A stretch of 64,000 nt of DNA, from contig NW_024704742.1 of the NCBI RefSeq assembly GCF_018977255.1, positions 93,498,001 through 93,562,000 on the forward strand, written 5' to 3'. Origin of the DNA: Callorhinchus milii (taxonomy: Eukaryota). Below are positions 12,173-61,649 of the stretch, piece by piece; within the stretch, counting starts at the first letter, position 1, and each line of letters starts with the position of its first letter. The notes under the pieces were generated by a model that was given only the letters and a program-made list of their open reading frames with translations, made no database searches and was not told the origin of the DNA. The translations under genes were made by a program, and so were the position numbers.

Positions 12173-12204
<32 letters not shown>

Positions 12205-18502: not shown

Positions 18503-18629
18503 ACCTCTTTTTGGATAGTGCCACAACCTTCTGTCTCGAGGCAAGAGTGCGACCACTGAGCCAGGCTGACACACAAAGCCTGCTGTTAAGATGTCAAATC
18601 ACGATCTTGATGAGGATATCGAAGTTAAT

Positions 18630-19897: not shown

Positions 19898-20143
<246 letters not shown>

Positions 20144-21493: not shown

Positions 21494-21734
21494 GTACTGG
21501 GAGACCCGAGAGCAGCGCTCTCCTCCCACAAAGAGTGGGGGGCAGAAGGCTGACCAGGAGCAGCAGGATCCCCTAGAGTTCATGCAGTCTGATGAAGACG
21601 AGGAGGAGGAGGAGGAGAAGAACGGTCCACATGCTGCAGCACGGAGGCGTTTGCAGGAGCAAAGAGAGCGCTTGCATGGCGCCCTGGCCCTCATTGAGTT
21701 GGCGAACTTGACAGAAGCACAGCTCCGCCAGTAA
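21494..21734 (+). CDS. ZNF367: ZNF367 coding exon 5 (to TAA stop)
   Basis: CACAG| (K)YWETREQR...acidic run...RRRLQEQRERLHGALALIELANL; spliced CDS totals 894 nt = 297 aa plus stop, frame intact. Confidence 0.95.
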
Positions 21735-38592: not shown

Positions 38593-39173
38593 GCTATGCA
38601 CACATAATTTTGTACTGAAATACCATACAATAGGAACCTTTCTGTCCCTCACCCAAGTAGCCATTATTTATGTGTAAGCCTTAATTGTGTGCATTTTTGT
38701 TGGAAAGTTATTCCAACCTGTAGTTGTTTTTTGAGGGGGAAGGGGTAGCAGTCAAGCACATTTCTATTCTTGCCAGATGCTCACACATGCACCTTCCAGC
38801 ACGAGGCTCTGGCTGGTGATCAGGATCCTCCCACCTCCCTTATTTCAGGAGATCCAAGGCCAATTGTAGCAATACAACTGCTGCCTGGTGATCACCAAAC
38901 TCAACACTGACCTGCAATATTGTGGTCTGCCTGGTTTGTTGCTGCACTGTCTGCTCCATTTACCCGCTAGGACATTGGGGGAGTTTGATGCAGTTTCTTT
39001 TGTTGAAAAAATAGTACATCGAAGAGGTGACAAGTATGTATTTCTGTGAGGAAGATCGTGGCTGTTGAAAAGGTGAGTATGCAGAATGCTCAGTGGTTTG
39101 GTTTTGAAACTCTTAAACACGGCAGTGGATTTCCACTTGTGTCATATCTGGCTGCCCAAAATTGAGAAGGAAG

Positions 39174-39565
39174 TTCAAAGCCCTCCATGGTCTTGCTCCG
39201 CTCTACCTCCATGACCTCCTAACCCCCCTACCATCCTGCTCGCTCCCTCTGCTCAGCGGGCTCCGGGCTGCTTCACGTCCCCCGCCTCGCCCGCCCCACC
39301 ATTAGCGGGTGGGCCTTCTGCCACTCTGTCTCCACCCTATGGAACTCCATACCACAGTCCCTCAGCCTCAGCCCCTCCATTGCCACCTTCAAGACCCATC
39401 TCAAGACCCTTCTCTTTGACCGTGCTTTCAATCTCCTTGCTGCCCTCTGCCCTCCACACTCCCCCAACCCTACCCTCAGCTTGGGTTCATAACTCTGTCT
39501 GTCCAGCGCCTTGGGATGTCCTCCTGATGTGAAAGGCGCTATACAAATGTAATTTTGTTGTTGTG
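39174..39565 (+). mobile_element. L2-type LINE 3' fragment
   Basis: Near copy of 32405-32790 including the tail. Confidence 0.88.
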
Positions 39566-39945
39566 ATTTTTTTAAAAAAAATGTGCCAGAAGTGTTTTGG
39601 AGCAGATGATTAAATTAAAAGTTTTTTAAAAAATCGACATCTGAAATGCAAGTCAACAACAACAAAATTACATTTGTATAGTGCCTTTCACGTCAGGAGG
39701 ATGTCCCAAATCAGCTGATTTTTAGGAAAGTTGCAATATTGTGTGCAGTTCAAATGAACTTTTTAAAATTGAGAAATTGGAGAAACATGTTTAAGGAAAC
39801 ATAATTATGCTATTTGAAGAGGACATTTCCTGTTCACTTTACCAGTAAACATCAAGTTTGTTTGGATTGAGCTGCAGCTTGTGGAGCTCACTGGCTTGAA
39901 TCCTTCTCTGTGCTCAGTTTTGTGGTCTTGATCGACGCTGCATAT

Positions 39946-40233
39946 ATAATAATAATCTTTGCATTTGATATAGCGTCTTATCACGTCTTCCAGATGTCTC
40001 AAAGCACTTCACAGAATATACGGTAAATATATTCACCAATTGACTAACAACCGGGTTACTACTCACTGCTAGGTAAACAGATGTGTGTGGAGTACCTTCC
40101 CAACATATCACCCCACCCAAACTTGCCCAACGTTTCACCCTGCCCAAACTTCCCCAATGTTTCTGTAGGGAATCAAACCCAAGTCCTCTTGTTTGCGAGG
40201 CAAGTGCTCTAACCACTGATCTACAGGACTCCA
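39946..40233 (-). mobile_element. tRNA-derived SINE
   Basis: Reverse-complement head and (ATT)n tail as at 37935. Confidence 0.82.
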
Positions 40234-41052
40234 CAAATTACAGGACTACAATTAGCCCTGGTTCTCTCAGAGTTTGAGGAGGGTAAAACCAGTCAGGATA
40301 ACCGATCCCTGTTCAGCACCCTCGACTGGTGATGGATGTGTGTGGCAGCCAGGCAAAGAGATGTCAACTCCATCTGCTGACACCCACTGCTAAGGGCCAC
40401 ATAAACAATGGCCCCAATCTTGGGCGGGATTGAGCATAACTAACTCCTGTGGAAACGCGACACAAGAGAAGGCTGGCGACCAGGAGCAGAGACATGTTAG
40501 AAAAATAATTGGGCTGTAAAAACCCAAAACAAACTGCTCCCCTGAAAATGCTATTTTTATCAAAACAATAAGTATTTTCATCAGAAGAATAATTTTGAGA
40601 TAATCAAAAATGAAGAGTGCAAACTGGAACAAAGGGGATGGAAAATAATCATAACAAGTTAACTCCAAGTGGGTGACTAAAGTAACATTATTGACAGTAT
40701 CAAAGTGGTATGAAGTGTAATAAAGCAATAACATTCTGAAGCGTAATAAAGCAATAAAAAAGCATGGACTCTGTTGATTGATTGTGTCTCACCCTCCTAC
40801 CTCTACCGTTCCTGCCCTCCACACCTCCTGATCCCAACCCCCAGCTCGGATCTAAATCCTTGTCTGTTCAGCAGCTTAGGACGTCTTCCCAACATGAAAG
40901 GCGCTGTACAAATGTAATTTGTTGTTGGTGGTTGATTGATTAGAACCAGCTCTCTAGAGATCAATGCAGCTATTGCCATCCCTCGTGGGTGGCTTCATGC
41001 CAAGTGCAGCATGTGTAACAGACATGTATGTACTCTTGTCATTGCGTTCCAG

Positions 41053-41119
41053 GGATGCTTCATTTGGCACTTGCACGTACAATCTAACAGTTCTGGACTG
41101 TTTATGCGCAGTGAGCAAG
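41053..41119 (+). CDS. CDC14B: CDC14-family dual-specificity phosphatase internal exon (orphan; paralog uncertain, CDC14B by neighbourhood)
   Basis: TTCCAG| (R)[22 protein letters not shown] |GTAAG; 67 nt, phase 2 to 0; matches recalled CDC14A RDASFGNCTYNLTILDCL and CDC14B [23 protein letters not shown]. Confidence 0.8.
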
Positions 41120-41289
41120 GTAAGAATCCATTCTCTACTATCATTAACTGGGATTCTGTGAATATAGTGAGTAATATGGAATGAAGAAGTCTTGTGACCG
41201 TGCACTTCATGTTACCTCCACTGACAATTTTTTCGTCTTGTGCAATGTTCTCAATTATCAAATCTAACACGTTTAAAATTTCTTCCCAG

Positions 41290-41352
41290 GCTTTGCAGTA
41301 TGAATTCTTTGATTTCAATACATTTGATGTAGATGAATATGAACATTATGAG
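41290..41352 (+). CDS. CDC14B: CDC14-family next internal exon (orphan)
   Basis: [34 protein letters not shown]; 63 nt, phase 0 to 0; carries the CDC14 FD(V/L)DEYEHYE motif and is in frame with the previous exon. Confidence 0.85.
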
Positions 41353-42054
41353 GTTAGTGGATTTTTTCATGAATTAAGGAAGCACATTATTCAAATCATT
41401 TTCATTCTCCAGAGTTCGGTTGAATGACTGAAGTACTGTAAACCAAAATACTTTTGAGCTTTCTCCCTGTATCCCTTAATACCCCGACTTCAACCTAAGA
41501 CCTTCTAGCTCCCTATGCTTCATTCTGCAACTGGGCCATGTCTTTACCCACTAGGCCAATGGGCGACCAACCCCAAAGCCTTTAGATTTCTGAGCAAACT
41601 CCTGGAGCTTTACTTTAATCAGGCTCCAGACTTCTAGAAACTGGGATAAAGATCATCTTTTGTAAGGTTGGCCCAACCCTGCTTTCTGCTCATTGTGCAA
41701 TAGATTGTGCTTGCCTGGCAGAGAGTAACCCGATTGGGAACAGAGCTGAAGGAGCACCTTGTCCTGAGAGGCAGTGCAGACTGGATCATAATAATAATAA
41801 TCCTTGCATTTGTATTTTATGAGTCAAATAGCCCCATTCTGTGCTATAAAATTGTATTATTTTACACATTATCACCTGAGGCAATAGAAAATCCGGCGGA
41901 ATCCGCTATAAATACCTTCCTCCGCTACCAATGTTTCTGGCCCGAGGGGCCACTCGGTGGTCACCTGATGTCACTGTGGGCGGGGTGTCTCTGGACGCCC
42001 ATTTGCGGAACAAGCGGCCAATGGGCTTCACTTGGAGGCCGTGCTGTTATGGTT

Positions 42055-44313: not shown

Positions 44314-44424
44314 TTAGTAGGTTTGAGCTTCAGTTTCACAGGTCTTCTTCAAATAATTCAACAGAATCTCTTGGATGCTGTCAGTGTGCAGAATCCATTG
44401 AGGAATATTTTTGAGAACAAATCC
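44314..44424 (-). CDS. HSD17B3: 17-beta-hydroxysteroid dehydrogenase type 3, last coding exon
   Basis: TTTTAG| GFVLKNIPQWILHTDSIQEILLNYLKKTCETEAQTY*; phase 0; resembles the HSD17B3 C-terminus (GFLSLIPAW...). Confidence 0.82.
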   Translation of the reverse strand, partial: GFVLKNIPQWILHTDSIQEILLNYLKKTCETEAQTY

Positions 44425-44839
44425 CTAAAATACAATAAGACATGCATGTGCAATTTAAAAGATGTTCTTAATAACATACTGAAAATAATTTTCCATTGGA
44501 TTATTCAGTGCTGATAAATAGTCTAGCAATGCATCATAGCTAAGATACAATATTACATTTATATAACGCCTTTTATGTTGGGAGGAGTTGCAAGGTCTTG
44601 AACCTTGAACTAGATTAGCGAGCAAGCGAGTCGGAACTACTTCGGGAGGGAATTCGAGCGAGTTGGACAGATAGGTTGAAAGCCCGACTGCAGATTATGG
44701 GGTGGAGAACATGAAGCAGGGTGGTGTCCTCTGAACGAAGGGAGTGGCTGGGTTGGTATGGTTTGAGGAGATTGCAGAGAAAGGGTGAGGCAAGTCTTTG
44801 GAGGGATTTAAATGAATATTTGAAAGAATTATAGGTTAC

Positions 44840-44986
44840 CATAAATTCATGAGACAGAGATCCATGGAAGTTTCCAAGCCAAATACAGTCAAGTGATTGT
44901 TTCGCGTACAAATCCGCTGCCAGCATAAATGTCCCAGGTTTCGTATGCCTTGTCATTTGAGTAGAAACTGAAAAGGGCATTAAGCA
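44840..44986 (-). CDS. HSD17B3: HSD17B3 exon (10 by human numbering)
   Basis: TTGCAG| CLMPFSVSTQMTRHTKPGTFMLAADLYAKQSLDCIWLGNFHGSLSHEFM |GTAAC; 147 nt. Confidence 0.88.
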
Positions 44987-45260
44987 CTGCAAAATAAGAA
45001 GGTGAAAGGTTTTATTTGCAATCAGACTCCTGTTTACCCATACTCTAGCTAGAAAACAATAGAAAATACGTTCCTGGTTGTAAGGGAACTCACATTCTAG
45101 AAGCACCTCCATTTGCCATATGTGATAAAACGTGTGAAGCTGTTTCTCAACCTCAGTCATTTTCAAACTGAGTTGTTTCAAACTGAAATATATTGACTAT
45201 CACCTCAGGATATATTTCAAACAGCAACTGAAAGTAGCAGAAGGTTTGCTAGTTAAATGA

Positions 45261-46254
45261 TTAAAAGTAGCTTTGCTGGATGGGCTGAGGTTAGCTTCTG
45301 ATTACATTTCATATTTTCCTGGGAAGATGTTCACTCCTCTGAGATAATGAGTAATCAGGTCCGTGAACACAGACGTGGGTACAGTGGACCTCAGAAAGAA
45401 AATGCTATAGCCTCAGACACCTGCCTATCTTAAGCCTGAGAAACAAGCAGGCTGTGGAAGGCTGCCCAGAAGTTATCCATATCTCTCTGCAAAGCAGCCT
45501 GAGAAGGGTGGGGGTTATCTCTGTGACAAGGGGAGGTGGAGGTGGAAACATATAAAAGATGTAACTTTGGAATAGTTGGAGTTGTGTAGAGGGTCAGTAC
45601 ACTTCCTAGTGGAATCAATATCGATTCTACTGTATCGATGTACAGGGGTGAAGAAATTTACCTCCAGTAAGAAAGTGACCATTAAAAGTTAACGAGGAGG
45701 AATAGTGGGTAATATGGTTTTGGTACTGTTTGGTAGGCAGGGAAGTAATAACGGTAGTAGCGGTTGGTCCAGGGAAACCCAGAAGTCAGATTAGGCAGTA
45801 CGAGTTGGGTGCTGGGCTAATAGCTGGTTGAGTTTACTGGAGCCACTCTCTGATTTGTCATATTATTGTTAATTGAACAGTGTCTGCGTATGACGGTTGG
45901 GTCCGAAGGTTTACCGGATGCCAGTCCCTGTTTAGGGTTGGTATTATGAGAGTCAGTTGTCTCCAAGGGGTAGTTCCAGGGGCTGATCTCTCCAGTGTAT
46001 GACAATATGTGATCCCAGGTCTACTGTTTAGTCTGGAGTATAAAATAGCTCCTGGATACGTGTCGTCATCCCTGTATTCTCAGTACTACTGTTTGGTCTG
46101 GAGTACGGAACAATGTCTGGATTTGTCTGTTTCGTATATTTGTGTCGTATTATTATTGTGTTGTATGTCATAACGTTAATTAGATTGTGAGCTTTACTAT
46201 TTGTTTTATAAAATAAACGCTATACTCTTACCACCACCTGTTGAATTATTAACA
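45261..46254 (+). mobile_element. Solo LTR-like element related to the intron-2 ERV LTRs
   Basis: 45265-45590 is the reverse complement of ~18020-18392, and 45602-45640 of ~15248-15290; TATAAAA at 45551; AATAAA at ~46212; ends ...TTAACA. The right boundary is inferred. Confidence 0.65.
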
Positions 46255-46499
46255 GAGTGAATGGAGTGGAAGACACATTTTGCTAGTGTGCCAGTCTTGG
46301 ACCCACAAACCATCCATAAACTCTCACCTCCAGCAAGGTTTGCACAACATAACATGGGTGCTTTTGTTTGAGTCCTCTAGAAAGGAGAGTTGTGAGAGCC
46401 TCATTTTAGCAGAAAGCCCAGCATTGAGGAGGGAACTGAGTGAGGTGGAACAGAATGAGAAGTCTATGCAGGAATTTAGTGAGAATTATTCAGCAAGAG

Positions 46500-48190
46500 A
46501 GATATGAGAGAGCAAGAGAGAACTCTTTCAATCAGCAGAAGAATGGGAAATCTTTCTTGAGGTAGAGACAACCTTATATGTAAGCGGGCAAACAAGTCAA
46601 TTAGCAGTTAATCCTAGGCCAGGTATTGGGGATTAATAAATTTGCTGACAAGTCAAAACTGGGCACTTCTGTTTGAGTCCTATATAAAGGGGAAGACTTG
46701 TGAGAGCCTCACTGAGCAGAGAGCTCAGCAGAGTGAGAATTCTGCTAAGGAATTTTATGAGCGTGGGAAAGAGGTGCATAATTATAAAATATACAATAGT
46801 TATATTAAAATAATATAAAACATGTCTGGGAATATAGCAGGGCAACTGTGACTGGTTCCAAGCACAATGTGTGCTTGATGGGAACTCCAGGATGCTTTGC
46901 GTGCCCTGGACAAATACGTGTGTAAGAAGTGCCTCTGGCTGCTTGAGCTCAGGGTTTCTGAGCTTGAGGAGAGGCTGGGGTCACTATATAGCATATAGAA
47001 GGCTAAAGAGTTCATGGATCGAATGTTTCAGGAGGTGGTCACCCCACTGCCACAAAGAATTCAGAAGGAGAATGAATGGGTGACCACCTGACACGGTAGG
47101 AAGAGGGGATGGGCAGTGCAGAAATCCCCTGAGAGTGTGGCACTCATAAACCAGTTTTCTGTACTGAATACTGGTCAGGGTGATGACACCTCTCGGGAGG
47201 GGAGTCAAAAGCAAATGGATGCACAGGGGGACACAGGGAAGTGTATCAATGCAATTGTCATTAGGGACACAATGGAGAAAATAGACAGCCGTTTTTGCAA
47301 CCAAAGACGTGACTCTTGCATGGTATGTTGCCTCCCTGGTGCCAGGGTTGAAGACATCATGGAATCGGTGCAAAACGCAGTAAACAGTGAGGTGGATAGT
47401 AGCAGACTGTAAGAGAACATAGACAGACTGGTAAAATGGGCAGACATGTGGCAGATGGAAGTTTAATGTGGAGAAATACAAAGTGATGCATTTTATGAGG
47501 AGACCTGGGGGTTCACATAATTAAGTCTTTGAAGATGCCTGGACAGGTAGATAAAGCTGTTAAAAAAGCATACGGAATACTAGGCTTTATAAATGGAGGC
47601 ATAGAATACAAAAGTCAGGAAGTTATGATAAACCTTTATAAAACAGTGGTTAGGCCTCAGTTCTGGCTACCACATTTTAGGAAAGATGTCAAGACATTGG
47701 AGAGGGTGGAAAGGAGATTTACCAGGATGGTGCCAGGAATGAGGGACTTCAGTTATCAGGAGAGGCTACAGAAGCTAGGATTATTCTCCATGGATCAGAG
47801 GAGGTTAAGGGGAGACTTAATAGAAGCTTTCAAAATTATGAGGGGATTCGATGGGGTGAACAAAGAGAAACTATTTCCTCTGGAGGGTGGGTCGGTAACC
47901 CGAGGACACCGATTTAAAATAGTTGTTAAAAGAAACAGAAGGGAGGTGAGGAGAAATGTTTTGACACTGCGAGTTGTTCAGAGCTGGAATGCATTGCCTA
48001 AAAGGGTGTTGGAAGCCGATTTGATAACAACTTTTAAGAGAGAAATAGATAATTATTTGGGGAGAACAAGTTTGTAGGGCTATGGGGAGAGCGCGGGGGA
48101 GTGGGATTGATTTGGATAGCTTTTTCAAAGAGCCGGCAAAGACACGATGGACCGAATGGCCTCCTTCTGTGCTGTATAATTCAATGATAA
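46500..48190 (+). mobile_element. CR1 LINE with 5'UTR/ORF1 remnant joined to the ORF2 3' end
   Basis: ORF1-like VCKKC..LELRVSELEERL, VALINQFSVL, MVCCLPGARVEDI (46850-47360), then ORF2 end GILGFINGGIEYKSQEVMINLYKTVVRPQ...WNALP and the CR1 tail. Confidence 0.88.
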
Positions 48191-48724
48191 TATGTATCTG
48201 TCTTATCATTGTAAAACGTTAGAACTTACTCCAGTGTAAAAGCTGTATAAAAGCATTTGAGTTCAGGCCATATTCCTTTTCAGAGATTAATTCCAGCTCT
48301 CATTCTATGTTTCTCACTTTGTTACTATCTCACTCAAGTGCTGCTTCTCTCTAGTTTTGCCTAACTGGTATGATTCTCTCTGTTTTCAGGTTAACAATCT
48401 GCCCAATCTCAGAGGTGGGTGCCAAATGGAGGCCATGTTTTTGGCAATAGACAAGGAATTAAAAGTTATAAAATGAGCCACCTTAGCCATGCCTCCTACT
48501 CCTCTAAATAGACACAAGTAGAAGCATTGCACAAGTTCCTGTTGAAAGCACAGCCTCATGACACCTGGCAATGGGGGGTAAGTTCTGCCTGAAATAGTCA
48601 GAAGAAAAAACAAAATACAGCTGAAAATTGTCAGCAGTGGAAATCAACACGGTTTCACTCAACAATCCACAGGCTGCTTTTGGGTCTTAATATTAACCAA
48701 TGACAAATCCCAAACATTTTGTAT

Positions 48725-49175
48725 CTGAGCTCCGTGACCCACTTAACTCCATCCTTGCCAGGCTTCACTGGTTCCCATTCGTGCAAAGGTTCAAGTTCAA
48801 TATCCTCGTCCTCACCTTTAAAGTTCTCCATGGTCTTGCTACTCCCTACCTTTGCGACTTATTAAACGTTTACCAATCTATCCTCTCAGCAGGCACTGGC
48901 TTCTCCTTAGTCCCTGCCCGTCCCACCCCACCATCAGCAGTTGGGCTTTTCACCCGCCACCCTTTGGAACTCCATTTTAGAGTCCTTCCGCCTTTCCCTC
49001 TCCCTTGCCTCCTTCCCAAGATCTTCCTCCTCGACCATGCATTTGGTCACCTCCCCTGCTCTCCAACCCTCTTGATTCCAAACCCCAGCTCAGATGCAAA
49101 CCTTTTAAGTCCAGTGCCTTGGGATGTTCCACCAACGTGAAAGGTACTCGCTAAATGCAATTTGTTGTTGTTGCT
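48725..49175 (+). mobile_element. L2-type LINE 3' fragment
   Basis: LARLHWFPFVQRFKFNILVLTFKVLHGLATPYL and (TTG)n tail. Confidence 0.85.
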
Positions 49176-50628
49176 GTTGGCTGGAGGTTTTGCATTACAC
49201 AAAATTCTACATACTTCCAAGTATTAAGTTTTTATAACCAAGCTCAGACTGCCATTGTGGGAGGCAGAACACAACTAGTTGAAGTGCTGTTGCCTAATAA
49301 GGATCCATAATGATGTTAAGTGAATTGCTTCAAATCATTTGTCTCAATAATTCCTGCAAACTAATCTCTAAGAAGGCCATTATATATCAAGATTTGAACA
49401 TTTATCAAAGAGAAAATGTTAAAGACAAAACATCTGACTTTTCTGAAGGGAGGATGTTGACACCTTTTAAATTCAGTCTATACACTACATATCTAGATGG
49501 TGAATGGGTGGATACAAACATTTAATAATATTGTACTTCAGTATTGTAAATATTCTACAGAGGAAACCTTGACACGTACAATTATATCATCCAAAGATAT
49601 ATTTGAACCACAGCTGTAGTACTTAAAGTAAAGTTGTTTTGGTTAGCCAGGTGTCTGACACACGTGAAAACCAATCACCATAAGAGTATCCAAACCAAAT
49701 GGAGTTCCATGTATCCCACCTATATGAATAATCTTTGCTTACTCCATGTGTAGGTGGGATGATTTAGATACTCTTAAGCATGGCGATGGAAATTTCACAG
49801 ATGTTTATTGGAATGGAGTGTACACTCCTTCCCTGAAGGGACACATCCTGCTTACCTAATTCCAGAAAGTATTAGGTGCAGGTTGACAAGAGCCAAGGCT
49901 TGGGGACGTTAAGAGTATGCGTTGGGGTATTGCTGGAGTCTAACCAGCTTAAAAACGCATGGCTTGCCATTGAGAGCAATGCCTGATAAGATTTCCTGCT
50001 GCTTGTCCAGCTAGTACCACCCTACCTGTTAGGGCTTTGGCTTGCAGGATTAACAGGAGCTGAATGGGAGGATTTCCTGCCCCCAGTGACTGGTCGGCAA
50101 GTCCTACTGATGAGCCAGGGTGGCTGTGCTGTCATGCGTATTCTTACCTTCCCCTCCTCCCGGAAGTAAATTTAAAGGTAGACAGACATACAACCCTGAG
50201 TCGACCTAACAGAATATTTATTTTACACAGAATCACAAAAGCTCTCTCATTGAAATTTTGCCAACTGGTTGCTCATCCAACCTTTTCTTCAGTCTGTCCA
50301 GCCGCTTTTTGCCAGATCTCATCCAATTACCTTCTCTTTTTTCGGCCATAGCACAAAATTGTTCTGGAAATCAGCATAGATATTAAGTAAATCATTGCAA
50401 AAAAGCTGTCTGCAATAAGTTTATCCTTTGTTGCCCGCTGGTATTAGGACACTGTAAGTGCAGGTATCTTCTTTAAAAAGGTATTGATGAAAATTGCTCT
50501 CTGGCCAATTCCATATAGATTTGACCCCATTGTTTGACAAACACGTGGTGCTAGGTATTATTGCAAAAATGGAACAAAACCAATGCCTTTTTATTCATTT
50601 CAAACATAGGAATAAATCTGATAATTAC

Positions 50629-50694
50629 CTGTATGATAATTCCTTTGGAGCCATATTCTGCTTTGCACGCATTGGAGAACCTTTCCATAAAAAT
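50629..50694 (-). CDS. HSD17B3: HSD17B3 exon (9)
   Basis: TTTTAG| IFMERFSNACKAEYGSKGIIIQ |GTAAT; 66 nt, phase 0 to 0. Confidence 0.92.
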
Positions 50695-50778
50695 CTAAAA
50701 AATAAATTTATTGAGAAAAATAACTTGTTGCTTTCAGCCTTGAAATTATATTTGGACTATTCTGCAAGTTATTATAAT

Positions 50779-51083
50779 TAATAATAATAATAATCATCCT
50801 TGCATTTGATATAGCGCTTTTCACGTCGGGAGGACGTCCCAAAGCGCTTCACAGAACACACTGTAAAGTGAACTGACTGTATATTTGTGGGCGAACGCGG
50901 CAGCCAATTGCACACAGCAATGTCCCACAAACAGTCGTAGATTGAAAATGACCAATTTATTATTATTTGTTTTGGAGGCGTGTGGAGTAAGGAAACTTGC
51001 CCAAGGTTTCGCCCTGCCTGGAATTGAACTCGAGTCTCTTGCTTGCAAAGCGAGTGCTCTAACGACTGAGCTACAGGACTCCA
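50779..51083 (-). mobile_element. tRNA-derived SINE, near-identical to the 37935 copy
   Basis: Reverse complement aligns over almost the full length. Confidence 0.92.
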
Positions 51084-52063
51084 CAAATTATAAATAATTT
51101 GTAAAGAATGTGTAATAAATAAGGATTATAATAAAAGAACAGTAATCATATTATTTGAGTAGAGAGGCTTGGGAAGGGTTTAAAATTGGGTTGCAATTTT
51201 GCAGTGCTTTAACAGATAATGCCCTAAATGTCAAATGTTATAATAAAAAGTTGTTCTTGTGGCTGGAATTTTTTTAAAAAAGGCTCATTTTTTTTATACA
51301 TGTAGAAAAATATGATGGTCAAAACAAGTGGGAAGCCTGAGGGACAAACCAAAGTGTAGGGATGGGGCAGGAAGAAGGGTTGATCAGTCAAAAGAAATTT
51401 AAAGGATGCCTTTTATCATATTCCTACTGTTTCTTAATTAATTGCTGGCATTAATTAATGAATAGAACAATAATCCTTATTTGTAGGACATGTGGCAGCC
51501 AACGTACACATGGAGAGGTCCCACAAATAGCCATGATGTGAGTGATCAATTTATTTGGCAGTTATATTGGTCAGGAGATTGGGAGAAACTCCCCTCTCTT
51601 TGTGAATAGTACCATGGGATCTTAAGGTCTATGGAAACTACCACCTAGAGCATGTGCAATATGTTAGTTGACAAAAGCAGGGGAGGCACCAGAACAGATC
51701 CAATCACAGATGATTGTTATTTTGTTGAGGTTGTCCAGGCAAAACTATACTCTGCACAAGAATTAAACTTACAGGCATGTCCAAGAATTGTCTTTTAAAC
51801 AATGCAGTGGGGTTTTAGAATTGTAACAGAACCTGTTGGATTAAAAGTGCTTCCAAAGGGAGAAAAGATAAAAAGACTGAAATTTTTTTTTAAAAAAAAG
51901 TATTTTTCCCCTGTAAATTGCCCAGGCTTAAAATATTTATCCATTACCTCATGAGTTTCATAGTTACCAAAATTACTACATTCTCACAGCTACATGAAAA
52001 AAAGCCCTAGGCTTTTTGGCAATGTGACTACTAGATGGTAACTTTTTTAAAAAGAAAACTCAC

Positions 52064-52145
52064 CTTAGAAGAATTGTACAAGCAGTAGAGAGGAACTGCA
52101 TCAACGGTCAGACCAGAAGATATGTTCAGTATCAGCCCCTTCTGT
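52064..52145 (-). CDS. HSD17B3: HSD17B3 exon (8), catalytic YxxxK
   Basis: TTTTAG| (R)QKGLILNISSGLTVDAVPLYCLYNSSK |GTGAGT; 82 nt; SDR Ser and YNSSK motifs. Confidence 0.95.
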
Positions 52146-52583
52146 CTAAAAACACAATATTTGGTTTGCATAATATATCACTGCACAAGCTTTGTAAAGA
52201 GAAGGTATAAAACGGACGTGATAAAGCACTATATCAAATGCAAGAATTTTTTTTATTATTATCCTGGAGCAATTTTTCATTCTCTTCTCAGAAAATGGTC
52301 ATACTGGAGAATTTCTAATTTTCAAAACAGAATTCATGCGATATCAAACATTGGTTGTGAACTGTTGCAAATACATATTCAACAATTTAAATCTTTCCCC
52401 AACCCAAATTGGTCAGACATTGGTCTTAAAAGAAATACATTCCTATAACTTCACTGGTTAGTCCAAAGTACCAGTTCATGGAACAACCTAAACTTGAAAA
52501 TACCTTTTGCAATTTAAAAAAATTCACAAGCTGGTAGAGATGCAGTTGAGACTCCTTTGCGATACCTACAATACAAAATTACA

Positions 52584-52950
52584 CGGCCTCCACGGCCTCA
52601 CTCCTCTCTACCTCTACGAACTAAGCCCCTACCAACCTGTCAGCTCCCTACGCTCAGTGGGCTCTGGCCTGCTTCATGTCCCTGCCTTGCCCTCCCCATC
52701 ATTGGCAGGTAGGCCTTCAGCCTCTCTGCCCCCATCCTCTGGAACTGCATCCCATAATCCCTCCGACTTGCCCCTTCCCTCCTTCAAGACTCGTCTCAAA
52801 ACAAAATGTTTTTTTTCTTTGATTGAGCCTTTGGTTACCCTCGTACTCTCTCTCCAATCCCGACTCCCAGCCCGGGTCCAAATCTCTAACTGTCCAGCGC
52901 CTTGGGACGTCCTCCCAATGTGAAAGCTGCTATACAAATGTAATTTTGTA
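52584..52950 (+). mobile_element. L2-type LINE 3' fragment flanked by inverted duplications
   Basis: LHGLTPLYL...FKTRLKT and GCTATACAAATGTAATTTTG tail. Confidence 0.85.
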
Positions 52951-53789
52951 TTGTAGGTATTGCAAAGGAGTAATTCTACCTGATGTGCATGAGGCAAGGC
53001 AACCCGACATTAAATAAAAAAAATCCACGTCCTTGACTCAAATCCAGTCATAATATTGTTTTCAAAGACAAGCAGCGTGTAATCTGTGATTGTTTTCATA
53101 ACAATGCTTGGTAAGCTTCACAAAGAGAAGGCATAATCACTGTTAAAGAGGAAAATCTATCATTTCAAGATTCTGATATACCAATTGAAGTCTCAACTGC
53201 ATCTTGTGCATTTTTTTAAATTGCAAAAGGTATTTTCAAGTTTAGGTTTGTCCATGAACAAACATTACAATAAATAACAACTCACATTTATGCGAGCACC
53301 TTTCACATCCAGACGATGCCTCAAAATGCTTCACACAAATTAAACCTAAAAATGAGGTCACAACTCCATTATTCCTGAATTCATTCATAATTACGGTATA
53401 GAAATTCTGATCAACAAGGTGTCTTTTCAAACTCATCTTTAAAGATAGGTTTGAGAATAAAACCGCTTAGATTTCTACCTTAGACTTAGCCAATTTAACT
53501 GCTTTTTTAAAAAAAATAGATAAATCTGAATTTAAAAAAATTACAGAAACTAATAAAACACTTCTAGGGTCAACCCTGATATTGCAATGGATATAGCTGC
53601 ATATATGCTTCTGGGGCCAGGAGTTCACTAGTATGAAGGAGTCATGAATTTGCTGGTGTCATCTGCAATCTGAGACTCACTGCTAGAGATCACACAATGT
53701 CCAGTTGGGTGGGGTGCCAGAGGCACCACTGTGTTTTAGGGAAATGCACTCAGCATGAGGAAGCTGGAGATCAGGAGCAGAGGCATATG

Positions 53790-54150
53790 TGGAGTCCTGT
53801 AGTGTATTGGTTAGAGCATTCGCCACACAAGTGAGAGGACCCGGGTTCGATTCTTGGGCAACGCAAAATCTTAGGCAAGTTTCCTTACTTCACACGTCTC
53901 TGGTTACCTAGTAGTAGTTGATTAGTTGGTTGGCGGATCACTTTCCAGGAGTAATAATCCCTCCAAAAACAAAACAAAAAAAATTTGGTCACTCAATCCA
54001 CGACTGTTTGTGGAACACTGCTGTGAGCAATTGGCTTCCATGTTTCACCCTCAAAATACAGTCAATCTACTTTGCAATATATTCTGTGAAGCGCTTTGAA
54101 ACGTCTCAATGAAGTGATAACGTACTGTATCAAATGCAAGGATTATTATA
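53790..54150 (+). mobile_element. tRNA-derived SINE, longer variant
   Basis: Head TGGAGTCCTGTAG..GGTTCGATTC; extra central TTACCTAGTAGTAG..GGCGGATCACTTTCC block; (ATT) tail. Confidence 0.88.
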
Positions 54151-54246
54151 TGTGACTGAGGAGAAAAGTAGAAAGATAGTTGGACACCAACTTTCTTTTA
54201 AAATAAAAAGAGATTCTAATCACTAATAAAAAAGAAATATTCTTAC

Positions 54247-54281
54247 CTATTTTTCATCTGTGGGAGGATAAGCTGGGTCAT
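54247..54281 (-). CDS. HSD17B3: HSD17B3 exon (7)
   Basis: CTACAG| MTQLILPQMKN(R) |GTAAGA; 35 nt, phase 0 to 2. Confidence 0.92.
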
Positions 54282-56084
54282 CTGTAGCAAAGAATTAATG
54301 CTGCATTTTATTCAAGTTAATCAAAAATAAAAATCAATCTTCTCAATAGGTCCAACAATACGGATTGAAGACAGACAAAATGAAAACCTATACAATTATC
54401 TCTCACCCATTTCAAATTGTTGCCTTTGCTACAAAACCCAAATACTGAAAGTCAATTTGGGAAAGGGTTTAGGGGCTTATGATGAATAAACATTCCCTGC
54501 ATTACCTGATAATATTGCATTGCCATTATAACGTGTGGGTTGGGTCCATAAACTCTGACCTTACATTATAATGAGACATAATAATAATAATTAAAAAACA
54601 AATCGATGCCAGTCAATGCCTTCAGGCCATCAGAGAATCACTGACTTTGCTTCTGTACCAGGAAGCACCTATGATATCACTTCCTTCCTGAAGCAACATC
54701 AACAGTGCTTCCTGCACATAACACACATGTGGCCCTCAGGAATTGACATCAACACCAATATTGGAAGCTGGAATTGTACCATGGGTCTTGTACAACAACT
54801 TTCATTTATATAGCGCCCTTCATGCACGGTTGCATCCCGGACCACTTTGCACACTGTAATGTGGACTGTACAATGTGAGTCCACAGTACACTTGCATAAA
54901 CAGACCCGTACTAAACTGGTACACGTTATAATGGGTATCACTATGTACATTGTGTTGTGTGGAAATTGTGTCACTCTGGCTAACAATTAGACTTATCCTT
55001 GTGATTGTACTGGGGACAATGTAGACTGCCCTCAGTATAGACTACAAATCCATAAGATTAACTCTATAATCTTGGAATAGTAGCGTCTCATACCCATATG
55101 TCAAACGCTCTGGGATGCTAGCCTGCGTGGGGCATGCTATAAATGCAAGTTGTTGAGATAAGAATTACTTTCAACATTTTTAGTTCTCCTAGCTTACATT
55201 ATATATGCTCAACATATGACTTATTTTGTCTTTAATTTTGCTCTGTGTGTAAATCAACTGATTTTGTTTTAACTGGCAGAAGCCTGCATTAGATAGTTAT
55301 GCTGCCATATTCTAAAAGAGACTGGAACGCAATAGGGGAATAGAGTAAATGTAATGATCATCTCAAAGTGCTTCATAACATTTTCTGTAAAGTGTAGTAG
55401 CTATGTATTTCCACACAAACACAGAAACTAACTTGTGCAGGATAATGTTTCAGAAACAGCCAGGAGATGAATGACCAATTTTGACTAGCGGATTGTTGGC
55501 CAGGGGACCTTTCTCTTTTTGAATAGTGCCATGGGATTTTTAATATCTATCATGAACTCACAACCTTCTGACTCAGAGGCAAAAATGCTGGCAATTGAGC
55601 CATTGTTAATAAAGTTTATAGAGAATTTGATTGTTAAATGCTGAAAAGACATTGCATAAAAAGGTGAGTGCTACAAAGGAGCAATTCTAGTGCAAAGGAG
55701 GCAAGGATCAGCTTATGTAAATTCCGTGCGCTCCTCAACATAAAAAAGTTCTAAAAATACTTTTCAAATCAAGTTGAAAAATCAAACCAAATTGAAAAAT
55801 GTAACTGTTATGTTTCAGCAACATAGAATTAACAATGCCTTTTCTTTTTAAAAGCCTACCGAATAGAACACTCAGACACCTAATGAACTAACAAAGATCA
55901 TTGACCATGATATTAAGGATTTAACATGTACATAAGCCTTCCCTTAAACTTGCAAATAGCCAATTCATTATTTTGTCACGTACATCTTCCAACATGAGAA
56001 AATGTGAAGAATGCAGCGTCATTAATACTTAGGATCACCCAGTTCTACTAGCAAAAAACAAATCATTAGTGATCGATCACATAC

Positions 56085-56129
56085 CTTGATGACAGATAAC
56101 ATATTGACATTGATTAAGTCATCGATGGT
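56085..56129 (-). CDS. HSD17B3: HSD17B3 exon (6)
   Basis: CAACAG| TIDDLINVNMLSVIK |GTATG; 45 nt, phase 0 to 0; includes the conserved SDR Asn. Confidence 0.88.
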
Positions 56130-57004
56130 CTGTTGCACAAAATAAATATCAGAATTAGAACACATAGTTGTAGTCATTTTAAATTCTCTCACAGCAGCTT
56201 TTTTCACCCAAAATGAACAGCTTATCGTCAGAGATCCCGTCAAAATTATTAATGTAATTAGATTATTGAGATCACAAAATAGCTTTGATCGCTCATTGCT
56301 GGAGGCACACTGTATTTACTGCAGCAGCAGCAGCAGTTGAGAGAAGTACCACCCAGCCATTAGTTACAGAACCCTATTAAAGTAAACCTAACTGTACTCT
56401 TAAACCTTTGCTACTTGACTCTAGATGTTAAGGAACCAAATTTTGTTTCAGCCCAGAACATGAACTCACAATCACCCACACAGAATTTTAACCTTCTGAC
56501 TGTACTCTTTATCGAAGTTCTCCTAGATGCACTTTCAAACATTTGAATACATTTTCAAATGTAATCCTGTTCTAAATAAAAATGCAGATCTCAACATTTG
56601 CGTCAAGGTTATTCTCCACTTCACATATATAAAAATGTTCTTTTACATCTTGAATCGAATCTTTGAGAATTCCTGTCAAACACATAAATCAAGTTTTGAT
56701 AGTGAAACGTTATTCAAAGAGTGTTTGGAGAGAGGGAACAGCAGGTCTGAAATAAAAGAGACCGCAGAGCAATTTCTAGGTATTTTATTGGGAGCCCGGG
56801 TAAGTCTGAACTTCGTTTGTGCCCATGTAACGTATGCACACCACAGAATAAGGTCAGAAGGTGTGAATCTGAGTGCAGCTGAAATATTACTAACTGAGCA
56901 TGGTGTTCCTTAAGTCATTCAATAAAAGATATGGCTGAATATTGTAAATTTGAAACATAACTTATATAAGATTTAGGTATTAGATATTGAATAATTTGCC
57001 AGAC

Positions 57005-57645
57005 TCGCCACTGCCTCATCCCTCAGGCTGCCGAAACCCTCACCCACGCATTTGTCACATCAAGGCTCAATTACAGAAACTCCCTCCTTCGCAACTCTTC
57101 CCTTCACAAGCTGCAGATCACCCAAAACTCTGCAGCTCATGTAATCTCATGCACCAGGTTCCGCGACCCCATCACTCCCACCCTCGCCCGACTCCACTGG
57201 CTCCCCATCCCCCAGAGGATCGAGTTCAAGATCCTCGTCCTCACCTTTAAGGCCATCCATGGCCTTGCCCCCTCCTACCTCTCTGACCTGCTGACTCCAT
57301 ACCAACTTGCCCGCTCCCTCCGTTCATCGGGCTCCGGCCTGCTCCATGTCTCCCACACCACCGCCCTACCATCGGTGGCCGGGCTTTTAGCCTCTCTGCC
57401 CCCACACTCTGGAACTCCATCTCACGGTCCCTTTGCCTCGCTTCTTCCTTTGCCACCTTCAAGGTCGGTCTCAATACCCTTCTCTTTGATCGTGCCTTTG
57501 GTCTCCCTCCCACCTCTCTGCCTTCCCTCACCCCCACACCACTCCTCCCCCATGCTCGGGCCCTGACACCTGACTGTTCAGCGCTTTGGGACGTCCTCCG
57601 GACGCGAAAGTCGCTCTATAAATGTAATTTTGTTGTTGTTGATGA
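57005..57645 (+). mobile_element. L2-type LINE 3' fragment
   Basis: HAFVTSRL..LHWLPIPQRIEFKILVLTFK..LWNS similarity; (TTG)n tail. Confidence 0.9.
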
Positions 57646-57662
57646 TGAAAGGAGCAGCATAC

Positions 57663-57730
57663 CTTATCTCTACTGAGCATGTCAAGAAATTTAGATGGAT
57701 GTGGGTTGGGCAACATTCCAACATTGTTAA
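57663..57730 (-). CDS. HSD17B3: HSD17B3 exon (5)
   Basis: TTGCAG| (I)NNVGMLPNPHPSKFLDMLSRDK |GTATG; 68 nt; NNVGMLPN fits HSD17B3 rather than HSD17B12 (NNVGMSY). Confidence 0.94.
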
Positions 57731-58236
57731 CTGCAAAGACAATCAGACATGGAAATAAAAGTTCATGAGCATATTTGAAATAACCAAACTACCAATATTT
57801 TTGCTATATTTTATACAAATGTAACAATAATTCATAGTCTGTGGCCATTTGAATTTAACACTTATTTTTCTGCCACCTGTCACTGTCTCTCCCCACCCGC
57901 CACCCCCCCCACCCCCTCAGTCACCAAGAACCTCATCCACACTTTCATCAAGTCCAGGCTTGGTCAGACTGATGCCCCACTCACCAGACTTCCCTCCACA
58001 AACTGCGCACTATACAGATCTCTAACCTAGGTCTTCTCCCGCAACTATTTTTATTCTGTGTTGTGCCACTGTTGAGCGCTCTGGGGCTCTATCCTGCATG
58101 AGGGGTACTATATAAATGCAATTTGTTGTCGTTATTATTCATCATCATCTGAGCCTCAACCTTCAGATCCGGTAACAATCAGGATTTTTGGAAAGGAATG
58201 TACTATTCCAACCTGCTCAACATAAAACATACTTAC

Positions 58237-58344
58237 TCAGAATCCCAATTTCAAGCCCTCTCAGATGTTCTTCAATGATATTATAAATGTCTCTCTTGGT
58301 AAAGTCAACCACAACAATCTTCACTTGTCTTCCTGTAAATTGCT
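58237..58344 (-). CDS. HSD17B3: HSD17B3 exon (4); upstream exons not found in the window
   Basis: TTGCAG| (E)[42 protein letters not shown]; 108 nt, phase 1 to 1. Confidence 0.94.
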
Positions 58345-58589
58345 CTGCAATTTATTCAAACTTGTAGTTAAAACTCCAATGATAAATAATTTAAGAGGTC
58401 AAGCTAATCTGGATTCAACACCTCTGGGATATTGGTCCAAGTGTGGGTTATTTAATTAAATAAATGCAACTAATTTGGGCAATTTAGAATTGAACAGATC
58501 TTTTCTTCCCCCCATATAAAAGGATGCCATTTGTTGTCTAGATAAAATGAAACACTGAATGCTGGCAATCTGAGCTAAACTAAACTTTA

Positions 58590-58730
58590 GCCTGGCTCAG
58601 TTGGAAGCATTCTCATCTTCAAGTCAAACGGTTGTAGGATCAAGGCCCCACCTCAAGACTTTGAACTCTAGGCTGACACTCCAATGTGGGGCCAAGGGTG
58701 TGCTGCACTGTTAAAGTTGCAATCTTCAGG
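58590..58730 (+). mobile_element. Old tRNA-derived SINE remnant (Deu/SacSINE-like)
   Basis: TGGCTCAGTTGG..GGTTGTAGGATCAAG..CTAGGCTGACACTCC..GTGCTGCACTGT resembles a recalled shark Deu-SINE consensus. Confidence 0.55.
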
Positions 58731-59374
58731 ACATGGCTGTAGTGTTCACCTACACACTGCAGTCACCAGAGTTTACAGTATATCCTATGAAATGCTTTGA
58801 GATTTTTCAATGTGATAACACACTGTCCAATGCAACAATTATTATATAGTAGAAGCTTCTCAAAATTGTCATCTGAAACAGATATGTAGTTAACATTTAT
58901 GCATTAACAGGATGAAGAAAAACTTTCAACTCATAATTAAAGATGTAATGGGATGTTAGATTGAAGATGAACAAATGGTCTAAAAAGTTTTGGTATGATC
59001 TCAATTGCTATATCAGTTACAGTAATTGGTTAGTTACCCTTACAATCACTTGTTTGTTAGCTGTTATTTGCAAAAATCTGATAATGGATACCGGAGTGTT
59101 TGTGCTATTCAGCTGAATATGCTTTAACATGCAAGCTTCAGACAAATTGCTTTTGTATCATGGCAAATCTCTAGAAGATTGAATGCACTTTGCAAATGCT
59201 CAGTTGCAACATGAAGTTCTCTCTATCAATATTTAAAGAACATAATGATCAGCCAAATTCTTTCCTAAACAATATTCTCAAATATAGTTTCCATTCTGGT
59301 TTTCTTTTCACACTGTTCATTGAACTATTATTTTGAACTATTGTCAGGATAATTAATACATTTTCATTAAATAC

Positions 59375-61392
59375 ATTACATGAGAGTATACAGCACAGAA
59401 ACAGGCCATTCGGCCCAATTGGTCTATGCCGGTGTTTATGCTCCACATGAGACTCCTCCTGCCCTTCCTCAACTAAGCCTTCAAGCATAACCTTCTATTC
59501 CTTACTCCCTCATGTACCTATCTAGCTTTCCCTCAAAGACATCTATGCTATTTGCCTCAACAACTTCTTGTGGTAGCATGTTCCACATTCCCACTACAAT
59601 AACAACAAGATTACATTTGTTAGCGCCTTTCACGTCGGAAGGACATCCCAAGGTGCTGGACAGTGTACAGCATTTCAGACCCGAGCTGGGGTCAGGGGGG
59701 GAGAAGGGAGGGGAGCGGAAGGGGGGTGACCGATGGCATGGTCGAAGAGGAGAGTCTTGAGGCGGGACCACTGCTCTTCTTAATATACATAATTGATCTG
59801 GACTTGGGTATAGCAAGTACCATTTCCAAGTTTGCGGACAATACAGTTAGGTAGGGTGGTAAACAGTGAGAAGGATAGCAGCCAACTACAGGAAGACATA
59901 GACAGAATGGTAAAATGGGCAGACACATGGCAGATGAGATTCAATGTGGAGAAATGCGAGGTAATGCATTTTGGTAGAAAGAATGAGGGGAGGCAATATA
60001 GGCTGGTAATACAATCTTAAGGGGGGTGAAAGAACAGAGAGACCTGGGGGTGCACGTAAATGAATCCTTGAAGGTAGGACAGGTAGATAAAGCTGTAAAA
60101 AGGGCATATGGGATACGAGGCTTTATAAATAGGGGCATAGAGTACAAGAGTCAGGAGGTTATGATTAACCTATATAAAACACTGGTTAGGCCTCAGTTAG
60201 AATACTGCACCCAGTTCTGGGCACCACACTATAGGAAGGATGTTAAGGCATTGGAAAGGGTGCAGAGGAGATTTACGAGGATGGTACGAGGAATGAGGGA
60301 CCTTGATTATGAGGAAAGGCTAGAGAGGCTGGGATTATTCTCATTGGAGCAGAGAAGGTTACGAGGAGACCTAATAGAGGTCTTCAAAATCATGAGGGGA
60401 TTTGATAGGTTAGAAAGGGAAAAACTGTTTCCACTGGTGGGTGTGTCGGTGACTCGAGATCACAGATTTAAAATGGTCTCTAAAAGAAGCAGAGGGGAGG
60501 TGAGAAGAATTTTTTCACGCAGAGAGTTCGAATCTGGAACGCATTGCCTGAAAGGGTGGTCGAGGCCGATTCGATAACTACTTTTAAAAACTCGGTGGAT
60601 GAGTATTTGAGGAGGACGGGTTTGCAGAGTTATGGGGAAAGGGCTGGGGAGAGGGATTAACATTACATTGGTCTTTTCAAAGAGTCGGCACAGACTCGAT
60701 GGGCTGAATGGCCTCTTTTTGTGCTGTATGATTCTATGATTTGAAGGAGGCTAAGCGGTGGGGCGAGGCAGAGTGATTGAAGGATGGAATTCCAGAGGTT
60801 GGGGGCAGAGTGGCTGAAGGCTCTCCCGCCAATAGTGAGGCGGGTGGGTCGGGGCACGTGGAGCAGGCTGGAGCCGGCTGAGTGAAGGGAGCAGGTGGGT
60901 TGGTAGGGGGTTAGGAGGTCACAGAGGTCGGGTGGGGCGAGGCCGTGGAGGGCTTTGTAGGTGAGGACCAGGATCTTGAACTGGATCTTCTGAAGGATAG
61001 GGATTTAATGGAGTTGAGCGAGAGTGGGGCAGATGGGATCATGAAGTTTGATGCAGGAGAGGACAACCATGGAGGTTGATGCTACCAGAGCCTGAGGTGC
61101 TGAGGCGCTAGCGCGAGCCAATCAGGAGGGCCTCAGTCTTGTTCACATTCAACTGTAGGAAATTTGCCCTCATCCAGTGGTCCTGGAATTGAGGGTGGAG
61201 ACAGAAAGATACAGTTGGGCGTCATCCGCATACATGTGGAAGTTGATCCCATGTCTACAGATGATGTCATCAAGGGGGAGCATGTCGAGTACTACTCTCT
61301 ATGTGAAGAAATTTCTTCTAACTTCCCTATTTGAACTATTTGTGACTATTTTATATTGATGGCCCCTGGTTTTGGTCTCCCCCACAAGTGGT
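59375..61392. mobile_element. Nested cluster: old CR1 tail (-) split by L2 (-), itself split by a younger CR1 (+, 59765-60740)
   Basis: CR1 ORF2 GPLLFLIYI..SKFAD..LYKTLVRPQLEYC; L2 halves 59598-59764 and 60741-61285; old CR1 halves 59375-59597 and 61291-61392. Confidence 0.85.
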
Positions 61393-61649
61393 AGTGATGG
61401 GTTACTACTTTCATTTTATATTCCAATATATCAGATAGCGTTGAACAGTGGAAATGATCCCTGAGCTCAGAGACAAATTAAACACAACTTTCCTCAGGGA
61501 TTTTAATGGTGAGGTAGAGTTCATGACAAAATTTAATGTACAAGATTTGTGTAAAAAGTGTCCTTGATAAGCCAAATTGTTTCTTCTCTCTTGCTTTCAT
61601 GTTCTAAGTTCACTGGAAATCAGGGGATGCAGAGTTTACTACATAACTA

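What the first reader, a model, noticed from the sequence alone, without database searches (positions are those of the whole stretch)
41053..41352. Two intact, isolated CDC14 exons between ZNF367 and the 3' end of HSD17B3
Seen: two consecutive exons (67 and 63 nt, 170-nt intron) with canonical AG/GT ends, no stops and compatible phases, encoding [44 protein letters not shown]. Known: this is a conserved stretch of the CDC14 N-terminal domain, and human CDC14B neighbours ZNF367 but lies upstream of it. I could not recognise the flanking CDC14 exons (FYADFGPL, TPEEAY, ENGDxNWI, HCKAGLGRTG) anywhere in the 64 kb. Inference, three options: CDC14 spans the locus with ZNF367 (same strand) and HSD17B3 (antisense) nested in its introns; these exons are a recent partial duplicate left at a rearrangement breakpoint; or the assembly is wrong.
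Basis: partly seen in the sequence, partly recalled or inferred. Interest (0 to 1): 0.75.

Follow-up and report, generated by a model that had tools for sequence, protein, structure and literature searches.

The report
Old partial CDC14B duplicate, patchily homogenised
The two stray exons are a leftover 2.9-kb copy of the middle of the neighbouring CDC14B gene, most likely kept looking intact because the gene keeps overwriting parts of it, which is a known kind of genomic debris rather than a new gene.

Summary
The exons are real (41053-41119, 41290-41352, AG/GT, open frame). They are exons 6-7 of CDC14B. A complete CDC14B lies just upstream of the window, same strand, ending about 13 kb before it, so nothing is nested. 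The window holds a direct partial copy, 38612-41462, of a block 76.3 kb upstream, ending about 20 nt before the exon-8 acceptor. It is not simply recent: edges differ by 9-17% and carry copy-specific repeat insertions, while inner tracts differ by 0.7-3% (clustering p<=0.003). That mosaic fits an old duplicate repeatedly overwritten by ectopic gene conversion. The exons sit in such tracts, so their intactness needs no selection (chance of 0 differences in 130 nt = 0.19). An independent sample holds both parent-type and copy-type contigs, so it is not an assembly invention; no listed contig bridges either junction. Spliced RNA-like contigs carry an allele linked to parent introns. SLC35D2 is missing here and HSD17B3 faces ZNF367, hinting at a local rearrangement (human layout partly recalled). 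Ordinary; a small chance of antisense or chimeric use remains.

The parts
38612..41462 (+). Partial direct duplicate of CDC14B (end of intron 5 to near the end of intron 7). Source G000:C1:93460320-93463164, 76.3 kb upstream, outside the window
41053..41119 (+). Copy of CDC14B exon 6 (67 nt; enters in phase 2), 0 differences from the parent exon in this assembly
41120..41289 (+). Copy of intron 6 (170 nt), 5 substitutions from the parent
41290..41352 (+). Copy of CDC14B exon 7 (63 nt), 0 differences from the parent in this assembly; other samples show a synonymous T>G at 41292 on a contig with parent intron alleles
41353..41462 (+). Diverged 3' edge (12 events in 110 columns). Homology stops about 20 nt before the parent's exon-8 acceptor; unique DNA follows
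38612..38697 (+). Diverged 5' edge (14 substitutions in 86 nt), abutting a repeat fragment at about 38421-38591
38698..39050 (+). Near-identical tract (5 events in 340 columns), inferred conversion tract
39174..39566 (.). Old repeat insertion present only in the copy (72-83% alike to other copies nearby)
39946..40246 (-). tRNA-headed SINE shared by both copies, 17% diverged between them; tRNA-like head at 40158-40229
40599..41052 (+). Near-identical tract (3 events in 453 columns) that includes a repeat fragment (40788-40936) with 0 differences between copies
10711..21734 (+).
44314..64000 (-). HSD17B3, 3' part (stop at 44316-44314; exon 1 lies outside at about 69.7 kb) (context)

Best explanation
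A DNA-level (intron-keeping) duplication copied about 2.9 kb from the middle of CDC14B into the gap between the 3' ends of ZNF367 and HSD17B3, 76 kb away and in the same orientation (shown). It has no first exon, no catalytic exons and no downstream exon, so it cannot make a phosphatase (shown). The event is old, because edges have diverged by 9-17% and each copy has its own repeat insertions (shown; age inferred). Since then short non-allelic gene-conversion tracts between the two nearby copies have repeatedly overwritten parts of it (mosaic shown, mechanism inferred). Conversions that would damage the real gene are purged, those that refresh the copy are neutral, so the copy's exons track the functional ones and look intact without having a function (inferred). 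Whether the copy arose by templated insertion at a break or is the stump of a larger tandem duplication cut back by the rearrangement that also affected SLC35D2/HSD17B3 cannot be told.
For: Complete parent with all exons in order at -79198..-13285 relative to the window; only exons 6-7 occur twice on C1; the second CDC14 gene is on C5. The parent groups with CDC14B-type proteins, 100/100 support. Block limits 38612-41462, direct orientation. 137 difference events in 2302 aligned columns are strongly clustered: longest identical run 184-222 nt against a shuffled mean of 83-94 (p 0.0003-0.0027, 10000 permutations; sum-of-squares 0 of 10000), also without exons and repeat-derived columns. A shared repeat fragment is identical between copies (0 of 149) while another shared SINE differs at about 17%, which constraint would not explain. 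Intron 6 differs at 5 of 170 sites between copies but a relative's contig differs at 27 sites over 258 nt of mostly intron, so the intron is not ultraconserved. Where the relative polarises sites, derived alleles fall on both copies (parent 40970, 41193, 41214; copy 41258, 41271, 41379, 41453). At the local intron rate (8 of 623), 0 differences in 130 exon nt has probability 0.19. Run X1 holds four copy-specific contigs with 0 differences, one parent-type contig and one shared contig at about double depth. Exon contigs of RNA-like runs X5 and X9 carry 41292G (37.9 of 37.9; 72.2 of 72.2), the allele that in X1 lies on the contig with parent intron alleles.
Against: At the block-wide rate (6.3%) zero exon differences would have probability 0.0002, so the reading depends on the exons lying in converted tracts, whose limits I drew after seeing the alignment. 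No listed contig bridges either junction (32 pieces listed of over 210000). Whether the copy carries T or G at 41292 in those samples is not shown, so the RNA allele does not strictly exclude the copy. RNA-like run X9 has one 148-nt contig identical to copy-specific sequence (39998-40145, depth 6; unique among the 40 of 2280 candidates scored). X5 contig 40388-40596 has 4 substitutions where the assembly's parent predicts about 9-10, so it fits neither copy cleanly. Polishing of near-identical tracts during assembly could have added some identity.
Confidence: 0.8

Rival explanations
1. The copied exons are used: ZNF367 exon 4 (phase 2) splices in frame into the exon-6 copy, or HSD17B3 read-through makes antisense RNA complementary to CDC14B exons 6-7; selection, with or without conversion, keeps them intact.
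For: Both exons keep frame and splice sites with 0 differences in 130 nt. ZNF367's exon-4 donor and CDC14B's exon-5 donor are both phase 2 (1 in 3 by chance). No AATAAA on the HSD17B3 strand between its stop and the copy (2.0 expected; only variant signals). One copy-specific contig in RNA-like run X9 and one flank contig (41875-42050) in X5, strand unknown.
Against: Flanking introns are as conserved as the exons in the same tracts. Exon contigs of two RNA-like runs from two studies carry the parent-linked allele. The X9 contig lies in a tRNA-headed SINE that can be transcribed by itself, and the run is only guessed to be RNA. The protein search with the exon-6 frame returned 6 hits of 7 candidates: five CDC14B proteins and one read-through ORF from a relative's parent-type locus, no chimeric model. 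ZNF367 would have to skip its own last exon and 8 AATAAA sites in the next 5 kb.
Confidence: 0.08
2. A single recent duplication of a divergent or chimeric haplotype, or patchy mutation rate, gives the mosaic without recurrent conversion.
For: Some of the most diverged parts are SINE-derived, which mutate fast and can be converted by other SINE copies; inner tracts are 98-99% alike.
Against: Non-repeat edges differ by 10-16%. Identity steps between at least four levels (0.7, 1.5-2.9, 7.5, 10-17%). Each copy has private repeat insertions, one only 72-83% alike to its relatives. Clustering persists without repeat-derived columns (p 0.0027).
Confidence: 0.07
3. Assembly artefact: a misplaced or falsely duplicated piece.
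For: No listed contig spans either junction, and only Logan contigs, no long reads, could be laid. A 2951-bp two-copy inverted pair at 99.6% identity 55-75 kb downstream shows the region may hold assembly or recent-duplication oddities.
Against: The copies differ at 137 events with private insertions, which false duplication does not produce. No gap of N lies in or near the block. Four 2025 samples hold 62-73% of the stretch's words (one study). X1 has copy-specific contigs with 0 differences, one of which runs from copy into the copy-only insertion (38978-39243).
Confidence: 0.04
4. CDC14 spans the locus with ZNF367 and HSD17B3 nested in its introns.
For: Same strand and intact splice sites only.
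Against: CDC14B is complete upstream, with its own exons 6-7 and a last matched exon at about -13.3 kb; no exon 8 or later exists downstream within 164 kb or elsewhere on C1.
Confidence: 0.01

Closest known systems
Partial gene duplicates (unprocessed pseudogene fragments) as defined by Katju 2012, PMC3449122 (passages read)
   Same: Incomplete DNA-level copy of one ancestral gene, introns kept, exposed to ectopic gene conversion that erodes divergence. The review reports partial duplicates as 21-76% of young duplicates in worms and flies.
   Different: Here the copy is only two internal exons, with no start, and no recruited novel exon was found.
CD177/CD177P1 gene-pseudogene conversion in humans, PMC4882059 (abstract and outline only)
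   Same: A nearby partial pseudogene exchanging exon sequence with its parent by conversion.
   Different: CD177P1 supplies a stop codon to the gene and has a phenotype; here the exons are identical and no effect on CDC14B is shown.
Vertebrate CDC14B (dual-specificity phosphatase; P0002 and relatives)
   Same: The exons are residues 162-205 of CDC14B, the end of the DSPn domain and the linker.
   Different: All other exons, including the catalytic HCKAGLGRTG exons, are absent from the copy.
Regulatory partial duplicates such as the Lymnaea NOS pseudogene (mentioned in PMC3449122, passage)
   Same: A truncated copy that could pair with the parent's RNA if transcribed from the opposite strand.
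   Different: No stranded transcript was shown here; this is only the novel case.

Membership tests
Partial (DNA-level) gene duplicate | Sequence derives from part of a single complete gene in the same genome | tested here: met
Partial (DNA-level) gene duplicate | Introns and flanking intron DNA copied along | tested here: met
   2.85-kb block with intron 5, 6 and 7 sequence
Partial (DNA-level) gene duplicate | Direction (ancestral versus derived copy) shown with an outgroup genome | tested here: inconclusive
   The parent is the complete gene in the human-like order; no outgroup assembly could be searched; one relative's contigs were laid but do not show its copy number
Paralogues under ectopic gene conversion | Differences clustered into identical tracts beyond chance | tested here: met
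   p 0.0003-0.0027 for longest run; 0 of 10000 for sum of squares
Paralogues under ectopic gene conversion | Identical tracts are not explained by conservation across species | tested here: met
   Intron 6: 5 of 170 between copies versus up to 27 of 195 against organism B, p 1.7e-4; a repeat fragment is identical between copies. Tested for these two tracts only
Paralogues under ectopic gene conversion | Shared polymorphism or donor-recipient direction in phased haplotypes | not testable with these tools
   Contigs collapse near-identical copies
Processed pseudogene / retrocopy | Introns removed | tested here: not met
   Intron 6 and flanks retained
Nested-gene arrangement (host CDC14) | Host exons continue in order on both sides of the nested genes | tested here: not met
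Functional CDC14 phosphatase gene | DSPn plus catalytic DSPc domain | tested here: not met
   Only DSPn 117-139 and the linker in the window; DSPc match only at the parent and on C5
Chimeric gene / partial duplicate with recruitment | Transcript joining the copied exons to non-parental exons | tested here: inconclusive
   Joint and loose-end tables were filled by repeats and cut (15 of 4251 joints, 24 of 4711 loose ends shown); no chimeric protein among 6 hits

The most novel reading that the evidence does not exclude
The copy is an old chimaera-lineage fragment that conversion keeps in step with CDC14B and that is read: either HSD17B3 read-through (no canonical poly(A) signal before the copy) yields an antisense RNA almost perfectly complementary to CDC14B exons 6-7, coupling a steroidogenic gene to CDC14B regulation in trans, or ZNF367 exon 4 splices in frame into it and swaps ZNF367's tail for a CDC14B-derived one.
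Probability: 0.07. Interest if true: 0.6.

Novelty: new member of a known kind. Interest (0 to 1): 0.22.

Why it matters
Mostly as a caution and a tidy example: exons with perfect frame and splice sites in an intergenic gap can be old, non-functional and kept intact by conversion from the parent, so intactness is not evidence of function and identity is not a clock. It could mislead annotation and read mapping at CDC14B exons 6-7. In a slowly evolving vertebrate genome, a 2.9-kb pair 76 kb apart with tracts of several ages is a small natural record of conversion tract length and persistence. The apparent absence of SLC35D2 and the flipped HSD17B3 are a side lead on lineage-specific rearrangement. 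It would matter more only if an antisense or chimeric transcript were shown.

Tried and rejected
Nesting, retrocopy and a second full CDC14B: rejected. More homology to CDC14B beyond 38612-41462 in the 152 kb downstream of 12 kb: none after masking repeats. In one search, X5 has no depth at 41564-41690 and X9 has depth only at exons and repeats, and organism B has no cover at 38770-38896 and 41564-41690; lack of cover proves nothing. Laying at 85% likeness drew in many repeat contigs, so the joints and loose ends at 41053, 41352, 38612 and 41462 were not shown; I laid 4 of the 24 listed runs. Summed depth is no copy number; the twofold step in X1 (18-26 over the exons versus 9 in the flank) is only consistent with two copies. 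SLC35D2: not found by Pfam TPT search, recalled motifs, a degenerate pattern (11 matches against 9 in the control; of the 3 inspected, 1 was an SLC35D1-type exon on C5, 2 were chance), a search with that exon, or 146 family proteins and a profile over the 264 kb, where the positive control scored E 1e-19; tblastx with C5 and C24 stretches was uninformative. Pfam scan of 148 of 158 candidate exon frames downstream found only ERCC6L2 and a reverse transcriptase. Rfam over 21-46 kb: 3 tRNA-like SINE heads only. No CpG-island-like stretch at 24-44 kb. Paper searches (listings only) showed nothing on this locus in this species; that covers the open library only. Earlier scan findings: none returned. 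No fold or complex prediction: a 43-residue fragment with no shown product gives nothing to test.

Full report
Observation. The two exons are exactly as described: 41053-41119 and 41290-41352, AG/GT ends, 170-nt intron, open spliced frame. [quoted passage not shown]

Where the rest of the gene is. A genome search with DSPn gave 9 matches: 4 on contig C5 (a second CDC14 gene, taken to be CDC14A), 4 upstream of the window on C1, and the window exon, scoring the same as one upstream exon. tblastn of P0002 over 264 kb around the window places every exon in order on the + strand from -79198 to -13285 (window-relative); exons 6 and 7 sit at -35244..-34945, and only these two recur, in the window. 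In a 23-protein tree the parent groups with CDC14B-type proteins of sharks and bony vertebrates (100/100). The layout is CDC14B(+), HABP4(-, one recalled motif at about -3.5 kb), ZNF367(+), the copy(+), HSD17B3(-), then ERCC6L2(-). Nesting is therefore excluded.

Anatomy of the copy. It spans 38612-41462 and matches G000:C1:93460320-93463164, 76.3 kb upstream, in direct orientation. It begins inside intron 5 next to a repeat fragment and stops about 20 nt before the exon-8 acceptor; unique DNA follows. It has no start, no catalytic exons and no CpG-rich stretch nearby. The HSD17B3 stop is 2.85 kb further on.

Age and mosaic. Over 2302 aligned columns (copy-specific insertions left out) there are 137 difference events, very unevenly spread: 16% at 38612-38697, 1.5% at 38698-39050, 9-17% at 39051-40246, 1.8% at 40247-40417, 7.5% at 40418-40598, 0.7% at 40599-41052, 0% in both exons, 2.9% in intron 6 and 11% at 41353-41462 (tract limits drawn after seeing the alignment). 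The clustering test does not use those limits: longest identical run 222, 184 and 184 nt for all columns, without exons, and without exons and repeats, p 0.0003, 0.0007, 0.0027 in 10000 permutations. Each copy has private repeat insertions; the copy's own 390-bp insertion is only 72-83% alike to other copies nearby. Constraint does not explain the identical tracts that could be tested: a repeat fragment at 40788-40936 is identical in both copies while a second shared SINE differs at about 17%, and intron 6 differs at 5 of 170 sites between copies but at up to 27 of 195 against a related species. Edge divergence (0.08-0.18 per site) is of the same order as that species difference (at most 0.15), so the duplication may be about as old as that split; this is uncalibrated. 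Seven sites polarised with relatives split 3 parent-derived to 4 copy-derived. The simplest mechanism is recurrent ectopic gene conversion, which Katju's review describes as the usual tether between paralogues (PMC3449122, passages). Within the converted stretch the intron rate is 8 in 623, so flawless exons have probability 0.19; against the block-wide rate they would have 0.0002. The no-selection reading thus rests on the tracts being real.

Is it an assembly artefact? Four samples of one 2025 study hold 62-73% of the stretch's words. I laid 4 of 24 listed runs. Of 8 pieces listed for X1, four match copy-specific sequence with 0 differences (38978-39243, 39715-39969, 40209-40417, 40486-40628; depth 8-14), one is parent-type (14 substitutions, 19 gap letters; 15 and 16 expected), one covers a near-identical tract at depth 18.6, two are flanks. 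So both versions and at least one homogenised tract exist in another animal. No listed piece bridges either junction, and most rows were cut because repeats flooded the tables.

Is it expressed? X5 and X9 are only guessed to be RNA. Their exon contigs carry a synonymous G at 41292, which in X1 lies on a contig with parent intron alleles 21-34 nt away; the assembly has T in both copies. None of X5's four listed non-repeat contigs in the block equals the assembly's copy; three fit the parent's difference counts and one fits neither. This points to the parent as the source, but contigs drop rare variants and the copy's allele in those animals is unknown. Against silence: X9 has one 148-nt contig identical to the copy at 39998-40145, inside a tRNA-headed SINE. 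ZNF367's exon-4 donor is phase-compatible with the copy, and HSD17B3 has only variant poly(A) signals before the copy (0 AATAAA, 2.0 expected). No chimeric protein turned up. These leave a small opening for antisense or chimeric use.

Breakpoint? The human order ERCC6L2, HSD17B3, ZNF367, HABP4, CDC14B (table passage of PMC8251932) is kept. From recall, not from a call, human has SLC35D2 between HSD17B3 and ZNF367 and all three on one strand. Here no SLC35D-like sequence was found in the 264 kb with a profile whose control worked, and HSD17B3 converges on ZNF367. A local inversion and gene loss near the copy is plausible, but which lineage changed, and whether the copy marks the break, needs other genomes.

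Known kinds and verdict. This is a partial, intron-keeping gene duplicate under conversion, like gene-pseudogene pairs such as CD177/CD177P1 (PMC4882059, abstract and outline). It is not a retrocopy, a nested gene or a phosphatase gene. Searches of the open literature found no description of this copy (listings only; no supplements were read, and genome-paper supplements could mention the locus). New instance of a common kind; interest 0.22.

Noticed in passing
G000:C1:93593929-93596879 and 93611913-93614864 (L023:1929-4879 and its partner): A 2951-bp, mostly non-repeat stretch occurs exactly twice, inverted, 15 kb apart, 99.6% alike: a recent inverted duplication, possibly flanking an inversion, or an assembly artefact.
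   Followed up: partly
G000:C1 about 93567916-93574576 (L020-L021), just 5' of HSD17B3 exon 1: A 2.4-kb direct pair at 94.9% identity lies immediately upstream of the HSD17B3 start codon, in its likely promoter region.
   Followed up: no
window 21734-64000 and loci L010-L029: No SLC35D2 between CDC14B and ERCC6L2, and none found elsewhere by heuristic searches; only an SLC35D1-type exon on C5:3.47 Mb. Possible gene loss or assembly gap; HSD17B3 is convergent with ZNF367.
   Followed up: partly
window 41077 (run X14, organism B): The relative's contig over exon 6 has depth 86.9 against 26-27 for its two longest listed contigs: a weak hint, from one contig, that the relative also has extra copies of this exon.
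   Followed up: no
window 41292: Three samples from three studies carry a synonymous G in CDC14B exon 7 where the assembly has T in both copies and the relative has T: a polymorphism, a fresh conversion in the assembled animal, or a polishing effect.
   Followed up: partly
window 260-10413: A roughly 39-bp minisatellite of about 10 kb in three blocks of alternating orientation, with the window's only gap (25 N at 2994-3018), lies between HABP4 and ZNF367.
   Followed up: no
G000:C1 about 93469843-93470010 (L017): A 56-codon CDC14B exon absent from P0002 but matching the longer isoform of a shark (P0007, 71%): a conserved alternative exon.
   Followed up: no
P0136 (Logan protein, 258 aa): A called ORF that reads straight through CDC14B exons 6-8 and two introns in a related species; most likely a gene-calling artefact, used here as an outgroup.
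   Followed up: yes
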